Source of the DNA: Naegleria gruberi
Taxonomy: Eukaryota
Direction: 5' to 3' (one strand)
Length of the DNA: 64,000 nucleotides
Assembly (NCBI GenBank): GCA_000004985.1
Contig: GG738852.1
Below the pieces are notes generated by a model that searched no databases, was not told the origin of the DNA, and saw nothing but the letters and a program-made list of their open reading frames with translations. Positions within the stretch are counted from its first letter, which is position 1. Every line of letters starts with the position of its first letter. Below, piece by piece: positions 17,292 to 56,752 of this stretch. A program made the position numbers and the translations under genes.

Positions 17292-17363
17292 GGGACCATG
17301 GTCTAGTGGTATGATTCTCGCTTTGGGTGCGAGAGGCCGTGGGTTCGATTCCCACTGGTCCCC
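17292..17363 (+). tRNA. tRNA-Pro (anticodon TGG), 72 nt
   Basis: GGGACCATGGTCTAGTGGTATGATTCTCGCTTTGGGTGCGAGAGGCCGTGGGTTCGATTCCCACTGGTCCCC. 7-bp acceptor stem GGGACCA/TGGTCCC; D-loop AGTGGTA; anticodon stem CTCGC/GCGAG with loop TTTGGGT (anticodon TGG); T-arm GTGGG-TTCGATT-CCCAC; discriminator C. Confidence 0.85.
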
Positions 17364-17914: not shown

Positions 17915-19981
17915 ATGATTAGATATTTTAAAGTAGTTTTGAGTGATTTTAAATGTACTGGATTACCTCCTGCAGATAGAAATGGTCTGTCAGACCCATA
18001 TATCAAGGGTAACTTTGATAACTTTCGTACTTTTAAATCACCAACAAAGAAAAAGACATTGAATCCGCAGTGGGACGGTTTTACAGTTGAATTTGACTAT
18101 CACACAAAATACGGATCTAAACTTCACTTGAAGAAGCTCTTGTTGGATGTTTATGATCACGATGTGCTCGGAAAGGATAACTTTTTGGGTTGTTGTGCCT
18201 TGGATTTATTCTCTCTTGCTTGTGGACCTACAAAACAAATAATTACCCTTCGTTCTCAACTCAATGCTAAGGATAATAACGGTACAATAGAATTTAATTG
18301 TGTGATGGAGGAAGTAACCAAGTCATTCATGATTTGTTTATCGAATGTAAAGGTTAATTTTAATCCTCCTTTGGAAGAACCTAAAAATTTGAGGTGTATT
18401 GTATTAGCAGAGGATATCAATGCTCCAGAGACTAATACATTAACCTGTAGAGCAGTACAATCAGAAGCTGTTTGGTCACAATTTGCCAATTTGGAACTTA
18501 AAAATGTTTCTCTCAAAACCATCTTGGATGACAGAATCATTATTAAGATTAAACAAGAAAAGACTGGTATTGACCCAACTATTGCTCGTATTAATATTGA
18601 TTTGTCAAAGATTTTAGATAAATTTTTGGATGAAAATAGAACCATGTCAGCTGGAGATGGTCTCACTGAAGATATGCTTCCAGTAAAGATTACTGGTCTC
18701 AAAGTTGAATATAAGAATGCAGACAATATGTCATTCAAGAAATCTCCAAAGAAATCAGGTGGATTTGGTCTTAAGAGTTCAACTCAGGAATATGATGATG
18801 AATTGTTAGGAAATCCTAGTAACAGTATCAAGACTGCTTTTGATAGATCTTTAGGTGTTGCTGAATTGGAAATTGGATTTATTGGTATTCCAATGTATGC
18901 CCAAATGGTTAGTGGTTCTGCTAAGGATAAGATTGTAACTGGTACTCCCCTTCTTGAAAACTTGCCAGTGCCTTCTGGTTTTGTTCCATCTGCCAATAGA
19001 GATGAAAAGAGAAAGCTTTCATCTTCTCCAACTAGTACAACTAGTACAGAGAATGGAAGTGGATCAAGAAGAGCTTCAGTTGCTCTCGAACCTCAAACTT
19101 TACCAACAACTGCAGGTCTACCATACGGTTGGGAAAAGAAGGTTGATAAGAGAACAAATAAGGAATACTATGTTGATCACAATACAAGAACTACTCATTG
19201 GCATTTCCCAACCAGTGATTCAAAGTCTCAATTGGATGAAGAAGAACACTCTGAAATGGAAGAAGTTGAAATGTCTATCAAACCAGTCCAACAAGAAAGA
19301 CGTCAATCTGTACAAAGTGGTAATTCTCAAGTTTATCAAATCCCTGTATCCCCAAGCCAAAAGCAAACATATCAAACTGTACCTCAAAATGTAGTACCAC
19401 AAGTAATGCCACAACAAACTTATCCTCAAAACTATCCACAACAATCTCCACAATCACCACAAAACTATCCTCAAAATCAACCATACATTCCTCAAAATGT
19501 TCCACAACAACAAGCTTATCAAACCATGCCTCAAGTCATGCCACAACAACCTTCCTTACCAACAACACCTGGTTTACCATATGGTTGGGAAGAAAGAGTA
19601 GATCCTGGTTCTGGTCGTGCTTATTATTTAAATCATACTACTAAGAGCACTCAATGGGAAAGACCAGGTCAACCAACAGTTAATAATACTCAACAATCTC
19701 TTATTCAAGGTTTCAATAATCTTCGTGTCTCCCCACAAAACCCACAAACCTACCAAACAAATCCACAAGCTTATCAAACAAGTCCACAACAACAACAACA
19801 AGCCTATCCAACCATGTCTCAATATCCGACAAATCCTCAACCACAAACTTACCAAACCATGCCTCAACAGAAACAACCACTTCCAAATGGTTGGGAAGAG
19901 AGAGTTGATCCAAGCTCTGGTCGTTCTTACTATCTTAACCATTTTACAAAGACAACACAATGGGATAGACCAACTTATTAA
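17915..19981 (+). CDS. C2-domain plus three WW-domain protein (NEDD4/Rsp5-like N-terminal architecture without a HECT domain), 688 aa, with Q/P-rich linkers
   Basis: C2 signature: GLSDPYIKGNF...LLLDVYDHDVLGKDNFLGCCALDL. Three WW domains: LPYGWEKKVDKRTNKEYYVDHNTRTTHWHFP, LPYGWEERVDPGSGRAYYLNHTTKSTQWERP, LPNGWEERVDPSSGRSYYLNHFTKTTQWDRP. Stop at 19979-19981 with no room for a HECT exon before the next gene. Confidence 0.8.
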   Translation: MIRYFKVVLSDFKCTGLPPADRNGLSDPYIKGNFDNFRTFKSPTKKKTLNPQWDGFTVEFDYHTKYGSKLHLKKLLLDVYDHDVLGKDNFLGCCALDLFSLACGPTKQIITLRSQLNAKDNNGTIEFNCVMEEVTKSFMICLSNVKVNFNPPLEEPKNLRCIVLAEDINAPETNTLTCRAVQSEAVWSQFANLELKNVSLKTILDDRIIIKIKQEKTGIDPTIARINIDLSKILDKFLDENRTMSAGDGLTEDMLPVKITGLKVEYKNADNMSFKKSPKKSGGFGLKSSTQEYDDELLGNPSNSIKTAFDRSLGVAELEIGFIGIPMYAQMVSGSAKDKIVTGTPLLENLPVPSGFVPSANRDEKRKLSSSPTSTTSTENGSGSRRASVALEPQTLPTTAGLPYGWEKKVDKRTNKEYYVDHNTRTTHWHFPTSDSKSQLDEEEHSEMEEVEMSIKPVQQERRQSVQSGNSQVYQIPVSPSQKQTYQTVPQNVVPQVMPQQTYPQNYPQQSPQSPQNYPQNQPYIPQNVPQQQAYQTMPQVMPQQPSLPTTPGLPYGWEERVDPGSGRAYYLNHTTKSTQWERPGQPTVNNTQQSLIQGFNNLRVSPQNPQTYQTNPQAYQTSPQQQQQAYPTMSQYPTNPQPQTYQTMPQQKQPLPNGWEERVDPSSGRSYYLNHFTKTTQWDRPTY

Positions 19982-24908: not shown

Positions 24909-27128
24909 ATGACACTACCAAATAGATTAGGATACAATTCTAAACAACATGCTTTACAGAAGAGATATCTTCAACAACAACAGCAACAACAAACACTTGT
25001 TGCTGCTCATCAATTTGCTGCTGATCCAAATTATGCAGCACTTTCTCAACAACAATTAAGTTATGGAACTCAAATGCAAGCTAATCAATATGGAGCAGCA
25101 TTTAATAGTCAACCACATTATCAAGCACAACAATTACAAATGTTTAATAATCAAGCAGCTGCTGGTATGATGGCAAATCAAGGAATGATGCAAACTCAAA
25201 TGATGTCTCCACAAATGTCACCTGCCATGTCTCAAACAAATCAAATGATGCCTTCTCCTGCTCCAAAGAAATCTAAAAAGAGAAAGAGTCAAGCAGCTAG
25301 TTCAAACGATGTCAGTCAACAAACTTTTTCAACTCCAGAAATTCAAAAAAAGAAGAAACCTAAAAAGAAAACCGAAACTCCAGAAAATGAAGAAAGTTCA
25401 GCAAATATTTCTTCAACTCCAACACCACCTTCCATTCAATTTGGTAATTCAGGTATAATCAAATCACCTAAAGTAATTAAGGAAGAAATTACTCAAATTA
25501 ATGAAGTTTTTGAAAAGGCAATTGTTTCTCTAATTGACAGATTTAAAAATGTCAAAATTAGAGAAAAGACACATTTATTTGCCATTCAACCATCTTTATT
25601 AACTTATAAGGAAGAAGAAAAGTATAAACCTAAGGAAGAAGAAATTATTACAACATTTCCTTCAAATAATGCAACATCTAGTCAGGATGGAGGTACTGAA
25701 GAAGGATCAGCTTCTACTTCAGTTGCTCCACAACAATCTCTTTTCAATGCAACTCAACAAGTCAAGCTAATTCAAAATTATCCAGTATTTTCTGTAAATA
25801 GACAAAATGATGTATCATTGATTGATAATTCACAATCAACATTGCAAGAAGAAGAAAAGAGTAGAAGAAGATTATTCTACAAGGATGGTCAATCAGAATA
25901 TTTAACCTCAGAAGATGTAATTGATGAAATTGTTCGTGATACTGATTGTTACTTTAAGAGAGAAATGTTAATTCATAATGGATTGAGTGAAACTCAGAAT
26001 AATATCATTTCATTCCTTCACGCTAGAACTATTCAATTCATTGAAAATAATAGATCAAAATTTGAGAAATTCCTTTCAAGTGCTGATAATGTAACTCAAT
26101 TGACCATGTTTTTGAATCAACATGAAGAATTCCAACCACTCATGCATCAATTACGTTCTGTTATTGAACATGCAGGTCATATCTTTGAAGAAAGGACAAG
26201 AGAAGAAGCATCTTCAATTATTTTACAATCAGGTTCAACAGCTGATGTTACAGATGAAGCAATTGATCAATTCCAATCAACACAAGATGATATGAATCAA
26301 GACAAGAATGTAGCTCTCATTGAAATGACACCTAGAGATATTTTACTTGTTTTCCTTGGTAAAGATGCAAATAGTGAAAGACATGAAGACGTTACAACAT
26401 TCTTGGACAGATTCAAAGAACTTCAAAAGCAATACAGAGTAGAGTGTAGTTATATTGATGATGCCTTAAAGAAATGGCAAGAAACTTTTGAGAGAGTGTT
26501 AAATAATCAATCATCTTTCAGAGTTGTTAGTTTTGAGGAAAAACACAGATGTAAGAAATCACTTGAAGCTCGTTTTGGTTTAATGAAACAACTCTTGAAG
26601 GACAAGTATCTCACAAAGATTTTAAGTACACAAGAAAATACATTGATGAGATCAAAGAGAAGAGGCAACCTTCCAAGACATGCAACCAATGTTTTGAAAT
26701 CATGGTTATACTCTCACTTCCTTCATCCATATCCAACTGAAAGCGAAAAGAAAGATTTGTGTATGGAAACTGGTCTCACTCTCACTCAAGTTAACAATTG
26801 GTTCATTAATCAACGTGTGAGAACTTGGAGACCAATGTTAGAATCCATGTTAGATGGTGATCAAAAGGATAAGGCAACACCATCCTCCTCCAAACCTCAA
26901 GAAGGAAAGAAGAGAGGAAAGAGGAATCAACAATCACCAGTTCAGCAACAACCAATTCAACAACAAATTCAACAACAGGTTCAACCCCAAATGATGAATC
27001 CAAATTTAATGGGAATTCCAGATTCGATGGGATCTCCAAATTATGCCTATGCCAATTGGTCTTCAAATCAATATGGTGATCCAAACTTTCCATTTTTCCC
27101 TGGTGATGTAACAGATGAACAGCAATAA
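24909..27128 (+). CDS. TALE-class homeobox transcription factor (MEIS/KNOX-like), 739 aa, Q-rich N-terminus
   Basis: Homeodomain [59 protein letters not shown], with the three-residue TALE insertion (HPY) and the WFINQR recognition helix. Compare MEIS ..[40 protein letters not shown]. Preceded by about 1 kb of non-coding sequence. Confidence 0.85.
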
Positions 27129-38808: not shown

Positions 38809-41800
38809 ATGAATAAACGACTAGAGGAATTTTCTCCTAAGCCAGTTGTTCGGAGCAGTAGAACAGCTGCTGCATCATCAAGTAATAGTAATATGGATGC
38901 TGATGATGATCAATTAATGGTAATTGATGAAAAAATCCTTCAAGAATTTAAACAATTTCACTCATCAGAAATGATTGAATATAATTCTAAAAAGTTTATT
39001 GAAAAGTATTGGAGCAATACACAAGAGAAGAACGAAAAGACCATGTATTTGGTAACCTTTTTACGTGATGTGATATATAAAGTACCAGAACATGAAGAAA
39101 AGGAATTACAAGTTTCGGAGAGGACACAAACAAACAGACAAAGATTAGAAGATTTGTTGGGAGGCTTGACCGGAGGAAATACTCCTACCATTAACAATTT
39201 TATGCAGCTATTGTCTGGATTGAGAGATCAACCAATGCCCATCACTACTTATTCTGAAGTTATAGTAAATCCTGATGAAACGGTAGAGATTGGATCCGAT
39301 TGGTTGTCTTGCTTGTTATGTTATGGACAAATGCAAAAGGAAGCACAGTACAAGAGAATATTAACAACAAATAGAGGAGTTTGTGGTAAAACTTGGACAG
39401 TTGGACAAATTGCATTCAAATGTAAAACTTGTCAGATGGATCCAACTTGTGCTATTTGTGAAGAATGTTTCAAGAAGGGAAATCATGAAGGACATGATTA
39501 TTCCATGACTAGAAATTCTAATGGTATGTGTGATTGTGGTGATGTTGAAGCTTGGAGTGTATCAGGTTTTTGTTGTGATCATACTGGAAGAAGTGATCCT
39601 CTGGCCCACTTGACCCCTGATTATTTGGAACTTTTGAAAGCCATCACCAAAGGATTATTCTCTAAAGAGGGTGTCATTAATAATTACATTCGAGAAATTA
39701 CAACCAAGTACAAATCGTTAAAAGATGAAGGTTCCAGAAAAAAGTCATTCCAACTGCAAACTCTCTACCAAAATTTCAAACAAGTTCTAGAAACTGTTTT
39801 GGAAAATTTTGATTCATCACCTTGTCTCAAAAAGTTAGCATATTTGGAACTTAAAGAGTTGAAAAAGGGATCGACGTCTCTAGATGAAATATTACTGAGC
39901 ATACCATCAATGACTCAACCAATCAAGTATTTGTATTCTGATATCTTTATGTCTTTCATAACAGACATTGATTTTAAAACATTTTTCTCGGAGAGATTTA
40001 TTGCTCATTACTCCATAATTATTGAAGACTACAAGGAATATTTGAAAACAAAAAATAAGGAAAATCGTGAAGATGATGAGAGAAAGTCAGTCCACATCTC
40101 TTCTCTTTCTGTTCAGCTATTAACTACTCCAACCGTAGCTGCCCACTTGATAGAAAATTGCAACTTGGTCTCAGTTCTTTTAGATACGTTAATAGAAACT
40201 GTAGAGGATGAATCTATAATGGATGAGACTAGAAATAATAGATTAGTTTATAATCCTGAAGCCAATTCTAAAAAAGTAGAAGCTCTGTATCATATCATTT
40301 TTGATATTAACTATTGTGTTATGCATCAAAAATTCAGTGATCATGTTTTACTCAATGAAGATTGCTACCACAAATTTTTAACATTCCTCTCCTATCTTCA
40401 AGCAACAATTGATATTAATAGAAAAGATAGCGATGACTCTCAATGGTATACGGCCTTCAATTTGGAGATGGGTACTTTACCTAAAATCATTAGATCCATT
40501 ACCAGTTTTATCGAAGGATATGCTAATGATTCAAAATATAAGACTATCCTCCGTCAATTAATTATGAATCTCAGCAAGATCATTTTGGATGATAACTTTG
40601 AAATTGAAACAGATGGTACTGTAAAAGTTAATCCATTCAATATTCCAATTACATACAACTTACCATTGCACAGGTTTGCAACAACCATATTCAAACAATT
40701 AATGTCAATATTCCCAACTGTTTCTCTCAAGTCATCTATTTCTGAAATTTTAGAACAAACATCACCAAACTCGCCACAAGTAACAAATCAATTCTTAATA
40801 CAGTTACTTGAACAGCCACTCAAAATTTTTGTTACTTCAGCCCAAATTACTGCTAGACTTTGGCAAAGAAATCATGAACATAGTAAGTAATTTAAATTTG
40901 AAAATCTTAAGATCAATTTTTCCAGTTCTTGAGCAATCTTATAATTATAATTCTGAAGCTTTTGGTGATTACACCTATTGTAATGACATATTCTTGATTC
41001 AAATTATTAGTGGACTCATGGATAATCATGATTTAATATTTAGAACACTTATCAAAAAGTTCAACAACTCCTTGGATGAATTGAAATTGTTTACCAAGGA
41101 AAAGCTAAAAGAAGATGAAGATAAAAGATCCATTTTGGAAGAAGAGTTTGCAAGACTCTTAGTTTGCATAAGTACCAACAGAGTATTTATGGATTCAATG
41201 AGCAACTTTGATATTTGTAGAAAATATGTTCTTCATTACTTGTTTACTGAGGAAAAATGCAAATTTTCAGATATTGTTTCGGCAGTTCCAAAATCCTTCA
41301 GAGCAGCTGGTATTGATCTCAAAGTTATTGTAAACGAAGTTGCTAATTTCCACAAGCCAAAAGGATCTCACGATCAGGGTTATTTTACTGTAAAATCAAA
41401 TTATTGGGATGAATTGGATCCATACTTTATTGGTATGAGCTCTCAATTATTTTATCAAGCTACAGAACAATACAAGACACAAACAGGGCTAAAACAACCT
41501 CCACCAATTTGTCTGGAAAAGCCAATATTTGCTGCCAATCAACAACTTGAAAGTGGGCTTACAGGATTAATGCTCAGTAATTCACTTTACAAGATAATTT
41601 TCTTTATCATGTATAGAACGATAATTTGGAGAAAGGATTCTAGCCAAGAACAGTTACCAGCTTTTGTTCTTCATTTACTCTTACTCTCACTGAATCATGT
41701 TCCTACTGGTACAGCAGAAGTTTCCCAAATAACTGTTCCTTCTAAACAATCCTTGCTCTCACCAATTAATAGTTATTTGGACATTCCATTTAAAGATGGT

Positions 41801-44080
41801 GAATCTCCAGTCAAGCTCATTCTTCGACCAATAGAAGATAGTGAAGGCAATGAATATTCTATCATTAGAATGCTTTTCGAATTTGGAAATCAAGGTGAAC
41901 TTGTTAATAAGATTTTCAATAGATTGATTGAATTGAACGAAGCTTGTGATAAAATTGTTGTTGAGGCTAGATTAAAGAAAGAAAACACCAGTAATAAGGA
42001 AGAGAAGGAAGCCAAGAAGAAGAGAGCTTTAGCCAATCGTCAAAAATTGTTGGAAAAGATGAATGCCAGTCAGAAAATGTTTGCCCAGAGCTTGGAAGAA
42101 GAGGAAGACACTGTTGACGATTCCGACAAATTGAAATGTGCCCTCTGTCATGACCACAAGTCACCAGAAGGAAACGAGTCTCTTTCTCTCCTCTGCCAAA
42201 TTGTTAACAACCCATTCCCTCAAATCACTAGAAACAAGGAAAATGTATCCCTCTTTGGAAATATTAGAAACAAACCAATTGTTGATATTGGAGAATTAAC
42301 AGAAGCATTTGCTGATGTCAATAAGGAACACAATGTTCAAATTAATTTCTGCTCTCATGCTTGCCATGCCGATTGTTTTGATAGATACTATACAAATCTT
42401 GTTCAAGAAGAATCTAGACGAAGAAGATTTAAAGGTTTTGGTCAAATAGATTTGGAAAGTATGGAAATACTCTGTCCAATTTGTTCTAGAGTGGCAAATT
42501 GTCTCTGCCCAATTGTTTCAAATCATGCCAATTTGCTCCAATCATCCAATTCTGTATCAACAGAATTACCATCACTTGAAACAATCGCTTCATTCATGAA
42601 GGATATTAAGGTTAAGGACAAGGCAGAAGATGTGAAAACTTCCACTACTCTTTCAACTATTTGTGAGAAAATTATTAATAAGAAGAAAGAAGACTTGGGT
42701 GATACTCTCGATCCAATGCCAGTTGATATTGAACCTTTTGAGTTGATTGATTCGGCATACTTTTCCAATACGTTTAGTTCGGAGATCGCTGTAGAGGAAA
42801 TACTTCAAAGAAGTCAACCACATTTACAAGTATTGCCTGAAGCAGTCAGAAAATCCCTCAGCCACGTATTTGGTCTTCTCATTTCATTCCAACAACTTAA
42901 TGAAAAGAATAGAGGAAAGACTCTTCAAGAAATTAATGCAGTAGTTGGTTCAATGATGGGCTTGAAATCCTATGCAAATTTGAGCCTTTATGATGAAGGA
43001 TTTAGAGAAAGAAAGATGTATCTTCCATTCTTGAGTGGAGACATGTTTACACTATTTGTGAGGTTAACAACCTTGCTTTTCTCATCTGAAAGAAAGATGG
43101 ATTCAGCAATGTTCAGAGATTTGTTAATGGTATTCTATACATCACATATCATTCAGATAATTATGCAATGCAACTTGAGACTTCAACAATCATTTAGTAC
43201 AGGCATTCCATCTATTGATAAGGAAATCTCCACAATAGAGAATATTCCAATATTTGAAAGATTTGAACTCAGAACCCTTGAAACTGACATTATTTTATCT
43301 GAAGATGAAATTGCTAAAATGTCCTGCGGTTTCTTAAGAAGAGTTGCTCTGTATTATTCGTTACTTTTCCCAGAAGAAGAAATTCCAACCTCAAGCTCTG
43401 AACATGTAAATTTGACGAATTATCTCCACCTTCCAACAGTAGATAACCTTTTGGTAATGATTAGAGAATCTAACCCTTATTCTGAGTTGATAACTAAATG
43501 GATTGATCAAGTTAAATTGTCCATGCAAAGTCTTTCAAAAGCCCTCAATGAAGAAACACAAGATGAAGATGATGAAGATTTGTATGCTAGTCAAGCTGAT
43601 TCTTTGATACCTTGCTTTGCAACTCCAAAACCTTTCAGCTTTATTGAGCTACCAAGATTATACGAAGATCTCATTCTCAAGCATAACAATGAAAGATGCC
43701 CACTCTGTTCCAAGAAATTGGAAAATCCTGCCATTTGTTTAATCACTGGAGAATTAGTATGGCTGAAGCAATGCACATGTGAGAAGCACATTTGTGGTAA
43801 GCTTACAAGATATACCAGGGAGAAATATTCTGGATTTGGACTCTTCCTTGTTATTAAATCATCGAGAATTTTGCTTATGCACGAAAGTAGATCAGGAATT
43901 TTGCATTCCCCATACCTAGATAGTCATGGAGAAGAAGATAAGAACCTTAAAAGAGGTGTTCCTTTATTCTTCCACAAAGAAAGACTCGATGAAAACATTC
44001 AAAAGTTAGGAAGAATGAATTGGGATCATGATACCATCATTTTGGAAAAATGTTCTAATTTGCAAACTCATGTTTTGTAA
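38809..44080 (+). CDS. UBR-box E3 ubiquitin ligase (N-recognin, UBR1/2/3-like), about 1740 aa, 2 exons (38809..40882, 40926..44080)
   Basis: UBR box: CGKTWTVGQIAFKCKTCQMDPTCAICEECFKKGNHEGHDYSMTRNSNGMCDCGDVEAWSVSGFCCDHTG. Downstream RING-like region: CALCHD...CSHACHADCFDRYY...CPICSRVANCLCP. A 43-nt intron (GTAAGT...TTTCCAG at 40883..40925) joins the two overlapping ORFs in frame (..NHEH ILEQSYNYN..). Confidence 0.8.
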
Positions 44081-47340: not shown

Positions 47341-48516
47341 TTATTCTTGATCATCTTCTGCTTGATAATTTTCATCATTAGCATCTTCCTCTTCGTAATA
47401 TTCATCATCTTCATCAATATCTTCCTCATAATCCTCATCATCATCTTCCTCATCTTCTTCCTCATCATCGTCATCATCCATGTAAAGTGAAATTGGTCTT
47501 CTAATTCCAATGAGAACTGTTTTCATTTGAGTGACAAAGGCAACATTATTGGCCTCATCTCCCTCAATGCAGAATGCAAGTGTGAAATCATCCGTCTTGT
47601 CTGAGATAAATTGATTCGTTTCAAAGGTATTTCTTTGTAAAATCAAATTGATAGAGTGTTTCTTTTCCTGCTCTGAAACATATTCCTGTAATTTGCTGAC
47701 ATAGAGACAAATTTCAATTATCTTTTCTTTGAGTTCCTTTTTAATGTTTGCATGATTGGCTTCAATACTGTCCATGAAACTTAAATATGATCTCGATGTC
47801 AAGTACCAAATCATTTTTGGAGTTGAAGTTGTAACATCATGTTTCGAATAGGAAGCACTCATACCAAGATTTGGAATATTTTGCTTTGGAATAATTGAAA
47901 AACTCAATGTAAATGTTGAGCTTTGTCCCATTCCCAAATCTTTTGTAACTTGTTGACCTTTAAATGTTGAGAGAAATCTGTTTTGAAACCAATTCACATG
48001 TTTGACTTGTTCCAAAGGATAATACCTCGATGCCAATTCAAATGCCTTGCTCACTCTCATCATTTGAATGATTTCTCTCAATGTAAGAAATGGAAATATG
48101 TGATTATTAATAATTTTGAATGGAATTTGCTTTTTACAAATAGAATACTTTAACTTTTCAAGATCGGACCTGAAAGATTCATGATTTTGTGTTTTCTTTC
48201 TTTCCTTGATGAGTGATGATCTCATCTGACGAGCAAATTCTTCAATTTTTCCAATATTTAATTTTCTGTCTTCTGATGATGAGGTTTCGTCTGTTGGATT
48301 TTCGTTTTCTTGTTGAGGAGGATTGGCTGCCTCTTCATTATCGTCATCATTGGTTGATTCGTCATCTCGGGATTTAGTTTTCAACATGTCGTTGAATAGT
48401 TTCTCCTTCTCATGATATTCCTTTAGTCTTTGTTCAGTTTCTCCTAACAAATCACTATCGAATAAATTTTCAAAATTACCCAGAAGAGAAAGGTTCTTAA
48501 ATTGTTGTGGAAGCAT
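47341..48516 (-). CDS. Hypothetical protein with an F-box-like segment and an extremely acidic (D/E) C-terminal tail, 391 aa
   Basis: ATG at 48516. QIPFKIINNHIFPFLTLREIIQMMRVSKAF is F-box-like. C-terminal DDDDDEEEDEEDDDEDYEEDIDEDDEYYEEEDANDENYQAEDDQE. Confidence 0.45.
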   Translation of the reverse strand: MLPQQFKNLSLLGNFENLFDSDLLGETEQRLKEYHEKEKLFNDMLKTKSRDDESTNDDDNEEAANPPQQENENPTDETSSSEDRKLNIGKIEEFARQMRSSLIKERKKTQNHESFRSDLEKLKYSICKKQIPFKIINNHIFPFLTLREIIQMMRVSKAFELASRYYPLEQVKHVNWFQNRFLSTFKGQQVTKDLGMGQSSTFTLSFSIIPKQNIPNLGMSASYSKHDVTTSTPKMIWYLTSRSYLSFMDSIEANHANIKKELKEKIIEICLYVSKLQEYVSEQEKKHSINLILQRNTFETNQFISDKTDDFTLAFCIEGDEANNVAFVTQMKTVLIGIRRPISLYMDDDDDEEEDEEDDDEDYEEDIDEDDEYYEEEDANDENYQAEDDQE

Positions 48517-48677: not shown

Positions 48678-50483
48678 TTAGTAATCATTCCATAATCCAA
48701 TATCCAATTTTTTCTCATTAAGTTCAAATCTTGCACTGTTGTGTCCACAAAGACATTTGCAAATATCATTGAAACAGAATGATTGAATTCCATCAAACAT
48801 ATCTCTTGGAATGATTGGGGAATGATTGGCAATTCCTAGTAAATTTGGAATATCAAAATGCTTTGGAATATTGATATTTAGTGGAGAATCTCTTTCAAGG
48901 TATAAACTAATAATTTGAAGAGCTGTTTCTTTTGTAATTGGTAATTTTCCTGTTTTGAATAGCTCAATATCATACCAAGCTAACATTTGCTCTGGATGGT
49001 AACCTCTTCTTGCAATATCCAAAATTTCTGCATACGCATCTCCTTCTTTTAGTTTGATTGCAACCTCCATTGAAATTTCTTCGCTATTCTTTGAGTCATA
49101 TCTCACAGAATACAAGACAGGAAGGAATATTGTAACAAATTGTTCAATGGTACAATAGAATAACATGCAAGTACCAAAAGGAAAGAAATAGTCAACCAAT
49201 TGGACTATAATATCAATTTGACTAGTAATAATATAAATAAGACAAAAGATGAGTTGGACAACCACTACAGCTAGAGTTTCTTTCTTAATATACCAAATAT
49301 CCTTATCAGTCCTAATAGAAAGAATGACAAATATTGTCTCAATAATTATATAAATAACGGCCTCACATGTAACCAAAATAGAGGTATTCTTCTCCACAGA
49401 ACATCCTCTATCAAATAAAAAGGTTCCTCCATCTACAAAGAAAAGTTTTGTTTCCACAAGCTCATCCGAAACTCCAACTGAGACCCAAAGAGCTACATGT
49501 ATAAAAACAATCAAAATAAGTGCCGGTATTAAGAATTTTGAGCTCAAAAGAAATGAGTAAATTTTGATAAACCTCTTCTTGCGTTCAATGTCCCTGTTTG
49601 ATATTGCAGATGCATTTGTTGTTTTGTTTTCCGAATAAATACTTTGATCATGCATTTCATGTTCATTGCCTAATTCTTTCTGCAATGTAAACAGTTCAAT
49701 TTTTTTCTTACAGAGCTTAAATTTAAAGAAGAGTCTAAAGCATTTGTAAATGGTAGGAAGAAAAATACTTGCAGGAAATAAAAAGTAAATGCTCGAGTAC
49801 AAAATGCATGGAAATGCAGATCTCCCAACTATGAATCTAATACTAAGAATTGATTCAAATATCACATTTCCAGTTAGTGAAAATAATAGAGACAATGGAT
49901 GCCTCTCCTTAATGTGCCTACTCTTCCATTTCCACACTAGGCCAATAAAAGTCAAGAATGTTATCAGTAAATAGATCAAGTAAAATATTGCAGATAGAAT
50001 TGGTGTGAAAATAGTGTCAGGACACAGCCCATAAATCTCTGTAGGCCTCTCCTCTCTCGAATAGCCTCCATTAAACAGAAAAGGATCGCAACTCGTCGCT
50101 ACAGATGCATTATAATTTGGAGTTGTTGAGAGTATGGTATGAAATATTTGGTCCATGTATTCCTTAACTACATGGTCATGCAAGCCTAGATGTTGTGCTA
50201 TTGATTGCACAAACGTATTTTCATTTACAGACGATGATGAAGATGTCAATTCCAAATCATGTTCCGAACAAGTCACAACATTTATCAAAGTACTCATCAA
50301 GGCCACCATTATCAATGTATTTAGAAAAAGCCAGTTAGTTTGTTTCATCTTTTTAAAGCCAAAGTTTATGTTATATTGATGTTGCTGTTGATGTTGTTCT
50401 TCTTTTCGTTGGTGAGTTGATGAAATTGCTTTTGATGTCATTGTGCGTTCATTCTTTTTTTTATGGGATTCAAAAATGTTCAT
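48678..50483 (-). CDS. Seven-transmembrane protein with a C-terminal RGS-like domain (7TM-RGS architecture), 601 aa
   Basis: Signal/anchor near the N-terminus, an extracellular Cys-containing region of about 100 aa, then seven hydrophobic helices (IFTPILSAIFYLIYLLITFL... to FPFGTCMLFYCTIEQFVTIFLPVLY). C-terminal region PEQMLAWYDIELFK...ALQIISLYLERDSPLNINIPKHFD resembles the two halves of an RGS box (EENLEFWLACEDYK ... A..IY..YI......VNID). Domain assignment is by eye only. Confidence 0.5.
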   Translation of the reverse strand: MNIFESHKKKNERTMTSKAISSTHQRKEEQHQQQHQYNINFGFKKMKQTNWLFLNTLIMVALMSTLINVVTCSEHDLELTSSSSSVNENTFVQSIAQHLGLHDHVVKEYMDQIFHTILSTTPNYNASVATSCDPFLFNGGYSREERPTEIYGLCPDTIFTPILSAIFYLIYLLITFLTFIGLVWKWKSRHIKERHPLSLLFSLTGNVIFESILSIRFIVGRSAFPCILYSSIYFLFPASIFLPTIYKCFRLFFKFKLCKKKIELFTLQKELGNEHEMHDQSIYSENKTTNASAISNRDIERKKRFIKIYSFLLSSKFLIPALILIVFIHVALWVSVGVSDELVETKLFFVDGGTFLFDRGCSVEKNTSILVTCEAVIYIIIETIFVILSIRTDKDIWYIKKETLAVVVVQLIFCLIYIITSQIDIIVQLVDYFFPFGTCMLFYCTIEQFVTIFLPVLYSVRYDSKNSEEISMEVAIKLKEGDAYAEILDIARRGYHPEQMLAWYDIELFKTGKLPITKETALQIISLYLERDSPLNINIPKHFDIPNLLGIANHSPIIPRDMFDGIQSFCFNDICKCLCGHNSARFELNEKKLDIGLWNDY

Positions 50484-50779
50484 AACAATTTACTAATAAA
50501 TAAACTGAAGCACCGTATTGTGGATTTCTTAAATAGTCCTTCAGTGATGAAAATGGTAAAATGAACGATTTTCTTGTTACTTTGTGTTGGCATTTATAAC
50601 ACACTAGTTGAGAAAGTAAACAAGTGATTAAAAATCATTTCAACAATATTGCCAGTTCTCAGCCCGTAAAGAGTTACCTTAATGGAACAGTTTACAAGCA
50701 ACTCAGTAATTGTTTGCGTAAACAACTTTATTCTCTGATTTTCACGTGAGGATGGCTTACATGAACCTGTGTTTTATCT

Positions 50780-52491
50780 TCGTGTTGCTTCAACAGGCTC
50801 ACAATTTTTGTGTGCCCTTCTGTTAGTGCTATTTCCATTGGTGACTGAATTGTTAATGCTGACCAGAGCTGGCAGACAACTTACCAGCTTTTGGTTGTTT
50901 AAAAAAAGTGTTTCAGAGCCAATAATTTTAAATAGTACTTACTTCATCCTTATTTTGTTATAATGGCTTGTAAGGTGGAGAATACATACATTTTTAAAAA
51001 CCCACTACATAATAGAGCTTTAACATGCTTTGTGTTCCTCAACTTACATCCTTAAATAATCGTAAACATCATGTTGATGTGATTATCACATACGAAACTT
51101 ACAGTCTGCATGTTGTTAAACATCATCACACATGCCAGAAACTTACAAACTTTAGGACGTAAAAACAACATTTAACGGAAAATGGACTTACTTGCTTAAT
51201 AATATCACACAACATTATTTACATCAACATCTTAAATACATACTCCTCTTTTAACATCAACTCCTACAACATTCACTAATAATTGAGGAGTCTTCATCAA
51301 TGCATCCATGTTCAATGTTAAAAAAAGCTTACCTCCTATTACATCTTTCAAATGTAAATATTACAAGAAATACTTACATACTAATAATCAAGGTCATTAA
51401 AATTGATTCTTGAAAGCATGTAAAACATACAATCTATGTACATTTAGAAAATCAAATAAGCTGATCACTTACATCCTACATGGAGTGAGATCACTAATTC
51501 ATACTGCATACTTACATACTGGATGGCAAGTGAGTATTCAAATAACGAACATACGTACAGACTTGAATCATTCAAATAATAAGACTATATACATCGAAAG
51601 GTACTCACATACTATCGGATTATTTAAGTGGAGAAAATGGGAGTAACTTACACTCTGACAAATTGTAAAACAAGTTCAAAAGAAGCTCACTTACTCCTTT
51701 GTTGACATCAATCCTTTTTGATTTTAACAATATTTCTACAATGGCTAAATTTTCACTCTTACATGCAACATGAAGGGGACTCTTTTGATCTGTTAGAATG
51801 TCTTCAATCCATGCTACATACATACTAAACAAAAGGAAGAGACAATGGAACAATACGAATTGGAAATGAAACTTACGTAGTTCTATTAGATTGAAAGTCA
51901 ATTTTCCTTGTCAAAAAATTGAAATTGCTTACATTCTTATTACAATAATATTACAGAATAACAAGGATTGAATCTTACATTTTCCTATTTGGAATACTTC
52001 ATGTAATCTTGATTCTGAACTTACATACTAACATTATTATTTCTGATATATTGTTCAAATGCCTAAGACAACTTACTCCTCTATTTACATCAACTTCATC
52101 CCTTTCCACCAATAGTTTTACTATATTGACATGCCCGAACGTACATGCTGTATGTAAGGGAGACTTTTGAGAGATTAATTTCTGGTCTTTCCTCAAACTA
52201 CACTTACATTCTAATCACGCCAAATTCAATTCCTCAGATTATTGATAACTACGTACAGCCTTTTTAATAGAATCCAGTAAATTTTGATATCCACAAACTT
52301 ACTCCTTTATTTACATCAATTCCTTTTATTCCCAACAGAAATTGTACATAATCTGTATCACCTCTCTCACAAGCCTCAATCAATAATGTTTTCCCTTCAA
52401 CTTCATCATTGATAAAGCTTTCAAAATTCCGAATCTGACAAAATTGATGAAAGTTTCCGCTTCTAAGAATATTGAATGCCTTTTGAGCCAT
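50780..52491 (-). CDS. Ankyrin-repeat protein gene with a fragmented, not fully resolved exon structure. Clear ANK exons at 52491..52303, ~52180..52067 and ~51815..51695, and a further ANK-like exon at ~50858..50780
   Basis: Exon translations: ..GKTLLIEACERGDTDYVQFLLGIKGIDVNKG | ..DQKLISQKSPLHTACTFGHVNIVKLLVERDEVDVNRG | ..EDILTDQKSPLHVACKSENLAIVEILLKSKRIDVNKG | ..ALTEGHTKIVSLLKQHEDKTQ. Each ANK exon ends ..GGAG|GTAAGT (phase 0). The connecting phases could not be reconciled using only the large exons (see finding 2). Confidence 0.45.
50950..51690 (-). repeat. Array of about 15 short intron-like units (GTAAGT/GTGAGT ... YAG, 35-100 nt each) separated by 3-6-nt spacers (TAT, GAT, GAG, ACT, AGT, GAAAAT, AACTAC...) within the ankyrin locus. 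A shorter copy of the same architecture lies at 51830-52060
   Basis: On the plus strand it appears as recurrent ACTTAC/ACTCAC (reverse complement of GTAAGT/GTGAGT) every 40-100 nt. Decayed ANK-exon ends are recognisable between units (GTTGATGTTAAAAGAGGAG|TATGTA; GATGTTGATGTAAATAAT). Confidence 0.5.
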
Positions 52492-55244: not shown

Positions 55245-56630
55245 TTAAATGGATGATCTAGAGGATACACTCTTTCTTGATGTTTGATTTTCCATCATGG
55301 CTTCAATAGCTTGCTTTACCTTATTGTATTGATCTGGATTCTTTTCAAAGTACATTTCCAAAACTCTTGGTTCAGTTTTAGTACCTGGCTTAAAGGTGCA
55401 TGTGAGAATTAATGTTTGATTGAGTGTATCTTCTTCAAGTTCCAAAGTATCAGTGGATGAATTATCATCTTTAGAATGTGGAGCAAAAATAAATTCTTGC
55501 TTGGACAAAAATCCAGATCTTCTATTCAAGAGCAAGAGATCTGTGAAAACGTATAAATCTAAAATACCAGTCTTTCCATTTGATCTCTTATAGTTGACTT
55601 CATTGTCTCCCTCAAAATAATAGAGTAATCTTCTGGTTGGAATGAAAAAGTCCTTCAATTTGAAAGTTTCTCCCAATTCCAAGCTCTTATGAATGTTAGA
55701 ATATTCAAGTTGTCTATTATTCAATTCTGATGCAATTTCCTTAATGAGACTCAATGCATTCTCAATCAATACAAATGATTCATCATTATGATCAGTAAAT
55801 TCTTTCAATTGTTGTAATAAGAGTTGATATCTTGGAATTCTCTGAAGTGGCAATACAAGATGTCCATCAATGGTAAAATCTGATGATACAGTAGCCTCAT
55901 CACTCAATTTCTCTGCAATTTTATCCAACATTTTTCTCAATTTTCCATTCTTTTTCTTTTCCTCTTCAAGTGTTGAAACAGCAATTCCATAATTTCCAAT
56001 AAATCTCGTATAAAGTTTAAAAGAGTGAGCATAATGTAACATTAACTTGGCAACAGCTAGACAGGACAATCCATCAACTCCAAAATAAATCTTTTTCAAT
56101 TCTTGGAGGAAATTCTCATTAACACCCTTAATAATAGCAATATCATTAAATATTAAATCAAATGTTTCCTTTTGAAGAATTTCCTTGATTGGTTTCAAAT
56201 AATTTTCTTCCAAAGTTCTCAAACCTTTAACATAGCTCTCTTCAGTGGTCAAAATTTCTTCCAAAATTCGATCTCTTTTCTTTTCGATTGGTGACTTTTC
56301 AATAACCATTTTAATGTCATCAACCATTTCATCATCATTAATTGTTGTATTCATAATTTCATCAAAAATACTTTCATTACTCTTGACTGTTAAACTATCT
56401 TCTCTGGAGTGTTTCTTTGCAGGTGATGATAAATCTTCCTTGATCAAATTGTCAGTTGACATTTTGACTGGCATCTCCTTCTTCACAACTTCGGCTTCTT
56501 GTTCATCAAATAAATTATTATCAGCTTGTTGATTATTGGTTGATGATGTCTCGCTGGCTTGCTTGTAATACATCAAGACACCAGTCACTATCAACACCAG
56601 CACGTAGAATAATACTTCGAGTAATAACAT
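55245..56630 (-). CDS. RhoGEF (Dbl-homology DH domain followed by a PH-like region) with an N-terminal transmembrane anchor, about 461 aa
   Basis: DH start RDRILEEILTTEESYVKGLRTLEENYLKPI and the hallmark LVLPLQRIPRYQLLLQQLKEFT. N-terminal hydrophobic MLLLEVLFYVLVLIVTGVLMYY. First ATG at 56630 (the track start at 56648 is TTG). Confidence 0.75.
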   Translation of the reverse strand: MLLLEVLFYVLVLIVTGVLMYYKQASETSSTNNQQADNNLFDEQEAEVVKKEMPVKMSTDNLIKEDLSSPAKKHSREDSLTVKSNESIFDEIMNTTINDDEMVDDIKMVIEKSPIEKKRDRILEEILTTEESYVKGLRTLEENYLKPIKEILQKETFDLIFNDIAIIKGVNENFLQELKKIYFGVDGLSCLAVAKLMLHYAHSFKLYTRFIGNYGIAVSTLEEEKKKNGKLRKMLDKIAEKLSDEATVSSDFTIDGHLVLPLQRIPRYQLLLQQLKEFTDHNDESFVLIENALSLIKEIASELNNRQLEYSNIHKSLELGETFKLKDFFIPTRRLLYYFEGDNEVNYKRSNGKTGILDLYVFTDLLLLNRRSGFLSKQEFIFAPHSKDDNSSTDTLELEEDTLNQTLILTCTFKPGTKTEPRVLEMYFEKNPDQYNKVKQAIEAMMENQTSRKSVSSRSSI

Positions 56631-56752
56631 TTTTTTCTTCTGCGCCAATTTAATATCCTAAATTTACTTTTAAAGGAAGAAACTTGTCAGCATTCGAATA
56701 ATTGTTATCTGCTTAACCTACCACACGAGTTTGAACTATTTTGGTTATTGAA

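What the first reader, a model, noticed from the sequence alone, without database searches (positions are those of the whole stretch)
48678..50483. Seven-transmembrane receptor-like protein with a C-terminal RGS-like box
A signal peptide and an extracellular Cys-bearing segment are followed by seven hydrophobic helices. The cytoplasmic tail then reads like the conserved halves of an RGS domain (PEQMLAWYDIELFK ... ALQIISLYLERDSPLNINI). 7TM-RGS proteins act as receptor-GAPs for G-alpha in plants, fungi and some protists. Finding one here would say something about heterotrimeric G-protein signalling in this organism.
Basis: inference. Interest (0 to 1): 0.5.

Follow-up and report, generated by a model that had tools for sequence, protein, structure and literature searches.

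The report
Naegleria seven-helix receptor with RGS tail
This gene of the amoeba Naegleria gruberi encodes a seven-helix membrane receptor fused to a G-protein "off-switch" (RGS) domain; it belongs to a large family already described in Naegleria, but its off-switch domain is unusually altered and the public annotation records only its last quarter.

Summary
The ORF 48678-50483 (-) encodes 601 aa: a hydrophobic signal-like segment, a short Cys-bearing ectodomain, seven TM helices and a roughly 120-aa helical tail.

The window is Naegleria gruberi. The public model for this locus (XP_002680843.1, 162 aa) covers only TM7 plus the tail.

The protein belongs to a 7TM-RGS family found across Heterolobosea. 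Bosch et al. 2022 described 28 7TM RGS proteins in N. fowleri, three of them tested as GAPs, and a N. fowleri RGS-domain protein is a strong homologue.

The one twist is that this copy's RGS box is selectively degenerate. It keeps the equivalents of RGS4 Glu87 and Asn128. Alone in the family, it has Lys at the Asp163 position and nothing aligned at the Arg167 position. GAP activity is therefore uncertain.

Interest is modest.

The parts
48678..50483 (-). Complete ORF of the 7TM-RGS protein (601 codons plus TAA stop)
   Evidence: ORF list; sequence. Homologues align along its whole length.
50346..50483 (-). Polar N-terminal leader, aa 1-46. It is probably 5' UTR if translation starts at Met45 (50349-50351) or Met47 (50343-50345).
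   Evidence: pLDDT below 50. It lies upstream of the hydrophobic signal-like segment. A related environmental strain carries an in-frame 6-nt deletion here. The choice of start codon is inference.
50268..50345 (-). Signal-peptide-like hydrophobic segment, aa 47-72 (MKQTNWLFLNTLIMVALMSTLINVVTC)
   Evidence: Hydropathy peak of 2.09 at aa 52-70. Cleavage was not tested.
50022..50267 (-). Short extracellular N-terminal segment, aa 73-154, with family-conserved Cys132 (CDPFL) and Cys154 (CPD) and an N-glycosylation sequon at N124
   Evidence: Family consensus 'CxPxL...CPD'. The model here is low-confidence (pLDDT 40-55).
49092..50021 (-). Seven-transmembrane domain, aa 155-464, with a class C GPCR-like fold. 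Cys226 (top of TM3) and Cys361 (extracellular loop 2) are conserved, and TM7 carries the motif P455-x-x-Y458.
49545..49748 (-). Long cytoplasmic TM3-TM4 loop, aa 246-313, modelled as a helical hairpin. Its length varies across the family.
   Evidence: Helices 226-281 and 289-313 in the model, with pLDDT dropping to 56-72 at aa 271-290. 7TM-region lengths range from 264 to 587 aa among homologues.
48738..49082 (-). RGS box, aa 468-582. Glu498 corresponds to RGS4 Glu87, Gln499 to Asn88, Asn536 to Glu126, Asn538 to Asn128 and Lys576 to Asp163. The Arg167 equivalent is missing.
48678..48737 (-). C-terminal 19 residues (aa 583-601) plus the stop codon. They are not aligned to the family RGS model and are predicted to be disordered.
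   Evidence: hmmalign leaves CGHNSARFELNEKKLDIGLWNDY unaligned. pLDDT is below 50.
48678..49166 (-). Extent of the existing public gene model (XP_002680843.1 / NAEGRDRAFT_63794, 162 aa, starting at Met440). It is truncated and omits TM1-TM6.
   Evidence: P0001 is 100% identical to aa 440-601.

Best explanation
The gene encodes a plasma-membrane 7TM-RGS protein of Naegleria gruberi. It is one paralogue of a family found across Heterolobosea, in which a class C-like seven-helix receptor domain is fused to a cytoplasmic RGS box with almost no linker: TM7 ends near aa 464 and the RGS box starts near aa 468.

By analogy with the N. fowleri 7TM RGS proteins and plant AtRGS1, the RGS box would bind the transition state of GTP-bound G-alpha at the membrane and speed up GTP hydrolysis. 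This would hold (partly self-activating) G-alpha subunits off until an extracellular cue sensed by the 7TM and ectodomain changes the position or availability of the RGS box.

Shown here: the ORF, the topology features, the GPCR-like fold, the RGS fold, family membership and the organism.

Inferred: surface localisation, G-alpha binding, GAP activity and ligand control.

This particular copy has an atypical RGS box (Lys for the Asp163 equivalent, no aligned Arg167 equivalent, Asn for the Glu126 equivalent). Its GAP function is therefore likely weakened, retargeted to a divergent G-alpha, or lost.
For: - **Organism and locus.** P0001, a N. gruberi 'predicted protein', is 100% identical to aa 440-601.
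- **Family.** There are 166 homologues at E<=1e-3 and 53 at E<=1e-30. They come from N. gruberi, N. fowleri, N. lovaniensis, Willaertia magna, Acrasis kona and Pharyngomonas kirbyi.
- **RGS identity.**
  - Pfam RGS is found in 41/41 aligned homologues, best 1.4e-14.
  - The family profile hits RGS10 at 3.2e-14 and more than 35 RGS chains in the PDB.
  - The query tail scores 71.7 bits (2e-23) against the family RGS HMM built without it, and RGS4 scores 41.8 bits against the same HMM.
  - hhalign against RGS4 gives 88.7% probability.
- **7TM domain.**
  - The seven helices appear in hydropathy and in the model.
  - P0111 has Pfam 7tm_3 at 41.1 bits, above the gathering score of 33.5, together with RGS.
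- **Topology (read from the sequence; one search gives the helix positions).**
  - The loops at 185-195, 246-261 and 391-402 are rich in Lys/Arg.
  - Cys226 and Cys361 are conserved.
  - N-glycosylation sequons lie at N124 and N366.
- **Function of relatives.** RGS boxes of N. fowleri 7TM RGS2-4 accelerate GTP hydrolysis on NfG-alpha2/3/5/7 and bind the AlF4- state (PMC9283941).
- **Retained catalytic positions.** The query keeps Glu498 (RGS4 Glu87; 105/105 in the family) and Asn538 (RGS4 Asn128; 94/95).
Against: - The query's own RGS box fails Pfam's threshold: 13 bits against 23.9. It appears only when the tail is searched alone.
- Leave-one-out scoring shows that the RGS box is selectively divergent. 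The 7TM region scores 319 bits, which is typical. The RGS region scores 67.6 bits, second lowest of 42, and the RGS/7TM ratio of 0.21 is the lowest.
- At the Asp163 position the family has D or E in 90/92 sequences; the query has Lys. At the Arg167 position the family has R or K in 89/91; nothing in the query aligns there.
- The Asp163 contact with Thr182 of G-alpha is listed among three critical RGS4 contacts (PMC8252600).
- The last helices of the RGS box are not confidently modelled.
- There is no expression, localisation or biochemical evidence for this copy.
- It was not tested whether the biochemically tested Nf 7TM RGS2-4 fall in the same 7TM subfamily as this protein.
Confidence: 0.8

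Rival explanations
1. Pseudo-GAP or scaffold. The protein is a real, expressed 7TM-RGS paralogue, but its RGS box has lost canonical G-alpha transition-state binding. It would then serve as a docking or regulatory module, like the RGS-homology domains of GRKs, axin or sorting nexins. Alternatively the 7TM part signals on its own as a class C-like receptor.
For: - The charge reversal D->K at the Asp163-equivalent position is unique in the family. The conserved Arg is lost and E->N occurs at the Glu126 equivalent.
- The RGS box has the lowest RGS/7TM conservation ratio in the family.
- The C-terminal helices are unaligned and low-confidence.
- De Mendoza et al. note that some RGS domains have lost GAP activity (PMC3971589).
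Against: - The two positions that are strictly invariant in the family and central to catalysis (Glu87 and Asn128 equivalents) are kept.
- N. gruberi has more than 30 G-alpha subunits (PMC5784254). The altered pocket may simply match a divergent switch I.
- No experiment has been done.
Confidence: 0.3
2. Decaying gene copy. The locus is a recently redundant paralogue drifting towards pseudogene status, and the intact ORF is a leftover.
For: - The family is very large (N. gruberi has 229 RGS genes, PMC5784254).
- No orthologue above about 37% identity turned up in N. fowleri, N. lovaniensis or Willaertia.
- The RGS box is degenerate.
- The public annotation kept only 162 aa.
- In an environmental relative that is 95.5% identical, the contigs diverge after codon 97 into unrelated sequence with an in-frame TAA.
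Against: - The 601-codon ORF is intact in AT-rich DNA.
- The 7TM region keeps every family-invariant residue (C361, P455; near-invariant R194, P225, C226, G360, Y378, D395, E402, P435) and scores as a typical member.
- The tail still folds confidently as an RGS box.
- The indel seen in the related strain is in frame.
- The divergent contig ends may be assembly chimeras from one low-coverage metagenome run.
Confidence: 0.1
3. Chance resemblance. The tail is a generic helical bundle and the hydrophobic region a generic multi-pass membrane protein, with no link to G-protein signalling.
For: - The whole protein gives no Pfam or PDB sequence hit.
- BLASTP of the tail against RGS4 gives E=1.5.
Confidence: 0.01

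Closest known systems
Naegleria fowleri 7TM RGS proteins (28 genes; Nf 7TM RGS1-4 studied; Bosch, Jeck & Siderovski 2022, PMC9283941)
   Same: Same genus and same architecture: an N-terminal 7TM domain and a C-terminal RGS box. A N. fowleri RGS-domain protein (P0011, XP_044565902.1) hits the query at 1.4e-60 along both domains.
   Different: - The studied N. fowleri proteins have large ectodomains with EGF repeats, lectin domains and GPS motifs. This one has only about 80 ectodomain residues and no recognisable domain.
- Its RGS box lacks the Asp163 and Arg167 equivalents.
- No biochemistry exists for this copy.
- Direct orthology to Nf 7TM RGS1-4 was not tested.
Arabidopsis AtRGS1 (the plant 7TM-RGS receptor-GAP)
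   Same: A 7TM domain followed by a cytoplasmic RGS box. The proposed logic is also the same: a membrane GAP restraining self-activating G-alpha (PMC3386157, PMC9283941).
   Different: - Here the 7TM is class C GPCR-like. Homology to the AtRGS1 7TM was not tested, and the fusion may be independent.
- The linker between TM7 and the RGS box is only about 3-5 residues.
- Only 19 residues follow the RGS box, with a single Ser (S583). A C-terminal phospho-serine cluster like the one that drives AtRGS1 endocytosis (my recollection of the literature) is therefore absent.
Class C orphan GPCR GPR158/GPR179 with RGS7-Gbeta5 (PMC8611064)
   Different: - In animals the RGS protein is a separate polypeptide recruited in trans. 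Here it is fused in cis.
- Sequence identity is only 10-14%.
- No shared ancestry of the association is implied.
Canonical R4-type RGS boxes (RGS4, RGS3, RGS10)
   Different: - About 15% identity.
- Asn88->Gln, Ser85->His, Glu126->Asn and Asp163->Lys.
- Arg167 is not alignable and the terminal helices are not confidently formed.
Trichomonas vaginalis 7TM-RGS and fungal class VI GPCRs (GprK, MoRgs7)
   Same: The same two-domain architecture in other microbial eukaryotes (PMC3865004, PMC3971589, PMC10184898).
   Different: Homology of their 7TM parts to this protein was not tested. They did not appear among the named hits that were looked up.

Membership tests
RGS domain (Pfam PF00615) | Sequence match to the Pfam RGS HMM at or above the gathering score (23.9 bits) | tested here: not met
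   The whole protein gives no hit at E<=10. The tail alone gives RGS as the top hit, but at 13 bits and E=0.13, covering only profile positions 26-71. All 41 aligned homologues match at E<=0.01 (best 1.4e-14); nine of the ten scored individually exceed 23.9 bits.
RGS domain (Pfam PF00615) | Homology to bona fide RGS boxes shown through a family profile | tested here: met
   The family profile hits RGS10 at 3.2e-14 and RGS4 at 1e-8 over the full box. The query scores 71.7 bits against the family RGS HMM built without it. hhalign against RGS4 gives 88.7% probability and E=2.6e-6 over 112 columns.
RGS domain (Pfam PF00615) | All-helical RGS fold | tested here: met
RGS domain (Pfam PF00615) | G-alpha switch-contact residues (RGS4 Glu87, Asn88, Asn128, Asp163, Arg167) | tested here: inconclusive
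   The Glu87 and Asn128 equivalents are kept (E498, N538). The Asn88 equivalent is Gln, but that position varies across the family. The Asp163 equivalent is Lys, and nothing aligns at the Arg167 position. The importance of these contacts comes from PMC8252600.
RGS domain (Pfam PF00615) | GTPase-accelerating activity on a G-alpha subunit | not testable with these tools
   This needs recombinant protein and G-alpha assays, as done for the N. fowleri relatives (PMC9283941).
7TM-RGS receptor-GAP architecture (Naegleria 7TM RGS, AtRGS1) | Seven TM helices N-terminal to an RGS box in one polypeptide | tested here: met
7TM-RGS receptor-GAP architecture (Naegleria 7TM RGS, AtRGS1) | N-terminus outside, C-terminus inside, so that the RGS box faces the cytoplasm | tested here: inconclusive
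   Sequence features are consistent with this topology: a signal-like segment, positive residues on the inside loops, conserved Cys226-Cys361 in the TM3/ECL2 positions, and sequons at N124 and N366. No dedicated topology predictor or experiment was available.
7TM-RGS receptor-GAP architecture (Naegleria 7TM RGS, AtRGS1) | Full-length homology to Naegleria 7TM + RGS proteins | tested here: met
   Hits span aa 120-590 and include N. fowleri XP_044565902.1 (1.4e-60), N. lovaniensis XP_044554402.1 and N. gruberi paralogues.
7TM-RGS receptor-GAP architecture (Naegleria 7TM RGS, AtRGS1) | Homology of the 7TM domain to that of plant AtRGS1 | not tested
   No AtRGS1 sequence or structure was compared. 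No plant protein was seen among the 20 named hits looked up.
7TM-RGS receptor-GAP architecture (Naegleria 7TM RGS, AtRGS1) | C-terminal Ser/Thr cluster for signal-induced endocytosis (an AtRGS1 feature) | tested here: not met
   Only 19 residues follow the RGS box (HNSARFELNEKKLDIGLWNDY region), with one Ser (sequence). That this feature defines AtRGS1 rests on my own knowledge of the literature.
Class C GPCR 7TM domain (Pfam 7tm_3, PF00003) | Sequence match to the 7tm_3 HMM | tested here: not met
   The query gives no hit at E<=10. Five of 42 family members hit at E<=5, and one (P0111, Pharyngomonas) passes the gathering score with 41.1 bits against 33.5. P0111 hits the query at 1.1e-11.
Class C GPCR 7TM domain (Pfam 7tm_3, PF00003) | 7TM fold closest to class C receptors | tested here: met
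Class C GPCR 7TM domain (Pfam 7tm_3, PF00003) | Large Venus-flytrap / Cys-rich ectodomain | tested here: not met
   The ectodomain is only about 80 residues with no Pfam domain. Some class C orphans (GPR158, GPR156, GPRC5) also lack a flytrap domain.

The most novel reading that the evidence does not exclude
This paralogue may be a natural 'RGS-dead' or retargeted 7TM-RGS. A class C-like receptor would keep its RGS fold fused directly beneath TM7, having swapped the Thr182-binding pocket (Asp163->Lys, Arg167 lost). It would then either pair with one of Naegleria's divergent G-alpha subunits through a non-canonical switch-I contact, or act as a non-catalytic G-alpha trap or scaffold.

More broadly, the 7TM-RGS family across Heterolobosea would be a cis-fused counterpart of the animal GPR158-RGS7 arrangement. 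That point is not made in the Naegleria papers I could read.
Probability: 0.3. Interest if true: 0.45.

Novelty: new member of a known kind. Interest (0 to 1): 0.3.

Why it matters
The finding corrects a public gene model. XP_002680843.1 is a 162-aa fragment, whereas the real product is a 7TM-RGS protein of about 555-601 aa. It adds one member to the known expansion of Naegleria receptor-GAPs.

Two things could be useful to specialists. First, the family's 7TM domain is class C GPCR-like by fold and, for one deep-branching member, by Pfam. Second, this copy is a natural variant at the Asp163/Arg167 pocket of the RGS box. That makes it a ready-made test of how RGS/G-alpha specificity or loss of GAP function evolves within a very large paralogue family.

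It does not change the picture of G-protein signalling in this organism, which was already known to have more than 30 G-alpha and 229 RGS genes.

Tried and rejected
- **Direct sequence searches with the whole protein found nothing.** Pfam gave no RGS or GPCR family hit, only two weak unrelated matches; PDB phmmer and the word-indexed homologue search found nothing. Only the exhaustive HMMER search found the family.
- **Exact-sequence look-ups.** Look-ups of the ORF and of a neighbouring gene failed, because the public model of the target gene is truncated.
- **First guesses at the organism were wrong.** From GC content and gene content I first guessed a dictyostelid or Trichomonas. One search showed N. 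gruberi.
- **Paralogues in the window.** tblastn found none.
- **Orthologue for a selection test.** I looked in metagenome contigs L001/L002. Only the upstream region and codons 1-97 are covered. The contigs then diverge into sequence that matches nothing in the window, so dN/dS could not be computed.
- **Earlier descriptions of the class C-like nature of the Naegleria 7TM-RGS receptors.** I found none in the papers held. Anantharaman et al. 2011 could not be fetched under the PMC id I tried (recalled from memory), so priority on that point is unknown.
- **BLASTP of the tail against RGS4** is not significant (E=1.5).
Full report
**1. What is in the sequence**

The minus strand of 48678-50483 is one uninterrupted reading frame of 601 codons ending in TAA. 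The window averages about 33% GC. By my estimate from base composition, a frame this long would stay open by chance with a probability of about 1e-20.

Hydropathy analysis shows a hydrophobic stretch at aa 51-74, right after Met45/Met47. Seven further hydrophobic segments follow at 155-187, 197-215, 223-245, 305-343, 366-393, 398-431 and 439-458. A hydrophilic tail runs from 460 to 601.

The only correction concerns the start: if the first ATG is used, 46 polar residues precede the signal-like segment, so Met45 or Met47 is the more likely start (inference).

**2. Organism and annotation state**

The window is eukaryotic and gene-dense. It encodes a dynein heavy chain, a TALE homeobox protein, a UBR1-type N-recognin, CEP76, a RhoGEF and others.

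The exhaustive HMMER search returned a 162-aa protein that is 100% identical to aa 440-601 (P0001). This is XP_002680843.1 / EFC48099.1, 'predicted protein' NAEGRDRAFT_63794 of Naegleria gruberi, on a 938,756-bp scaffold. The public model thus begins at Met440 inside TM7 and omits the signal segment, the ectodomain and TM1-TM6. That explains why exact look-ups of the full ORF failed.

**3. Family**

The search found 166 homologues at E<=1e-3, 120 at E<=1e-10 and 53 at E<=1e-30. The best full-length ones are about 37% identical and align from the ectodomain cysteines to the end of the tail.

Named members come from N. gruberi (at least five other paralogues), N. fowleri, N. lovaniensis, Willaertia magna, Acrasis kona and the deep-branching Pharyngomonas kirbyi. 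The family therefore spans Heterolobosea.

In an alignment of the query with 41 homologues (A1):
- the invariant residues are C361, P455, L478 and E498;
- the near-invariant ones include R194, P225, C226, G360, Y378, D395, E402, P435, S494, L529, N538 and R580.

**4. The tail is an RGS box**

The whole protein gave no Pfam RGS hit. The tail searched alone gave RGS as the best family, but at only 13 bits (E=0.13, cut-off 23.9). The indirect evidence is much stronger:
- All 41 homologues hit Pfam RGS, best 1.4e-14.
- The family profile hits RGS10 at 3.2e-14 and more than 35 other RGS chains over the whole box.
- An HMM of the family's RGS region built without the query scores the query at 71.7 bits (2e-23) and rat RGS4 at 41.8 bits.
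- hhalign of the family tails against RGS4 gives 88.7% probability over 112 columns.

**5. The membrane part is a class C-like GPCR fold**

The full-length model (pLDDT 80, pTM 0.73; over 90 across the TM bundle) has seven TM helices and a beta-hairpin in extracellular loop 2. It also has a long helical hairpin in the TM3-TM4 cytoplasmic loop.

The query has no Pfam 7tm_3 hit. However, family member P0111 (Pharyngomonas) passes the 7tm_3 gathering score (41.1 against 33.5 bits) besides RGS at 54.9 bits, and it matches the query at 1.1e-11. Five of 42 members hit 7tm_3 at E<=5.

Several features fit a topology with the N-terminus outside and the RGS box in the cytoplasm (inference from sequence):
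- conserved Cys226 at the top of TM3 and invariant Cys361 in extracellular loop 2, in the positions of the standard GPCR disulfide;
- Lys/Arg-rich inside loops;
- N-glycosylation sequons at N124 and N366.

TM7 runs almost straight into the RGS box: the helix ends near 464 and the next starts at 468.

**6. What is known**

Bosch, Jeck and Siderovski (2022, PMC9283941) reported 28 7TM RGS proteins in N. fowleri. They showed that the RGS boxes of Nf 7TM RGS2-4 accelerate GTP hydrolysis on NfG-alpha2/3/5/7 and bind the AlF4- state selectively. Some of these G-alpha subunits are self-activating, as in plants.

De Mendoza et al. (PMC3971589) list 7TM-RGS architectures in many lineages and note an RGS radiation in heteroloboseans. 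N. gruberi is credited with 229 RGS genes and more than 30 G-alpha subunits (PMC5784254).

The kind is therefore known, and this locus is a further member. The Bosch and de Mendoza papers that I searched for it say nothing about a class C-like 7TM in the Naegleria proteins. I could not obtain Anantharaman et al. 2011.

**7. What is unusual about this copy**

Leave-one-out scoring shows a typical 7TM region (319 bits). The RGS region scores 67.6 bits, the second-weakest of 42. The RGS/7TM ratio of 0.21 is the lowest.

Column by column, the query departs from strongly conserved family residues:

| Query residue | Family residue | RGS4 equivalent |
|---|---|---|
| I490 | F/Y | – |
| G494 | S | Glu83 |
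| H496 | C | Ser85 |
| T517 | R | – |
| N536 | E | Glu126 |
| F569 | H | – |
| K576 | D | Asp163 |
| G580 | R | Arg167 |

Across 111 other family RGS boxes:
- the Glu87 equivalent is E in 105/105;
- the Asn128 equivalent is N in 94/95;
- the Asp163 equivalent is D or E in 90/92;
- the Arg167 equivalent is R or K in 89/91.

The query keeps the first two. It is the only gene with Lys at the third, and nothing in it aligns at the fourth. The family HMM stops aligning at '...DICKCL' and leaves 'CGHNSARFELNEKKLDIGLWNDY' out. Both models give that stretch low confidence.

A review lists Asn128-Gln204, Asn88-Thr182 and Asp163-Thr182 as the three critical RGS4/G-alpha contacts (PMC8252600). Homology and fold are thus secure, but catalytic competence of this copy is an open question.

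**8. Mechanism and rivals**

My best reading (confidence 0.8 for identity and architecture) is a membrane 7TM-RGS protein that places an RGS box under a class C-like receptor bundle. By analogy with N. fowleri and AtRGS1, it would act as a cue-regulated GAP for G-alpha. I put the chance that this particular box is a competent canonical GAP at roughly even.

- **Pseudo-GAP or retargeted RGS box (0.3).** This rests on the unique pocket changes.
- **Decaying copy (0.1).** The supporting points are the lack of any close orthologue and two contigs from one metagenome run. These are 95.5% identical upstream and through codon 97, then switch to unrelated sequence with an in-frame stop. The points against are the intact ORF, the fully conserved 7TM signature and the confident RGS fold.
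- **Chance resemblance.** This is excluded.

**9. Verdict**

This is a new, mis-annotated and atypical member of a known kind. Interest is modest (0.3). It would be higher only if the altered RGS pocket proves to mark a non-canonical G-alpha pairing or a natural pseudo-GAP.

Noticed in passing
window 48678-49166 (-) versus 48678-50483 (-): The public N. gruberi gene model for this locus (XP_002680843.1, NAEGRDRAFT_63794, 162 aa) starts at Met440 inside TM7. The upstream 439 codons, which encode the signal segment, ectodomain and TM1-6, are missing from this public protein model.
   Followed up: yes
L001 1-1262 and L002 1-934 (ERR1078381, PRJEB11402) versus window 50191-51342: Contigs from an environmental metagenome are 95.5% identical to the upstream region and codons 1-97. 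They carry an in-frame 6-nt deletion removing Phe-Gly at aa 41-42. They then diverge into sequence that matches nothing in the window and carries an in-frame TAA. This may be a structural variant or pseudogene in a sister strain, or an assembly chimera.
   Followed up: partly
window 47341-48516 (-): The immediate downstream neighbour is a 391-aa ORF of unknown function. It has only sub-threshold Pfam hits (DUF7295, 0.029) and an extremely acidic Asp/Glu C-terminal tail.
   Followed up: partly
window 38809-40890 (+) and 40808-44080 (+): A UBR-box ORF and a UBR1-wing/PRT6_C ORF overlap by about 80 bases in different frames. They are most likely one N-recognin E3 ligase gene split by a short intron or a frame shift.
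   Followed up: no
window 17915-19981 (+): This ORF has a C2 domain plus three WW domains (Nedd4/Rsp5-like) and ends right after the last WW domain. The expected HECT domain must lie in a downstream exon or be absent.
   Followed up: no
window 55245-56648 (-): A RhoGEF (DH domain) gene lies about 5 kb from the 7TM-RGS gene. No RGS domain was detected in this ORF, so it is not obviously the RGS-RhoGEF G-alpha effector type described in N. fowleri.
   Followed up: partly
window 24909-27128 (+): A TALE-class homeobox protein (Homeobox_KN 3e-19) carries a weak match to the PBC domain (1.9e-4, below threshold). From my own knowledge, that domain is usually regarded as animal-specific.
   Followed up: no
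window 1-9372 (+) and 17292-17363 (+): A dynein heavy chain motor region forms an uninterrupted 3123-codon ORF running off the window start. There is also a single tRNA-Pro(TGG) gene.
   Followed up: no
P0004 and P0008 (N. gruberi EFC37803.1 and EFC37800.1, same 233,110-bp scaffold): Two paralogues of the family have accession numbers three apart on one scaffold. This suggests local tandem duplication as a source of the family's expansion. The gene studied here has no paralogue within its 64-kb window.
   Followed up: partly
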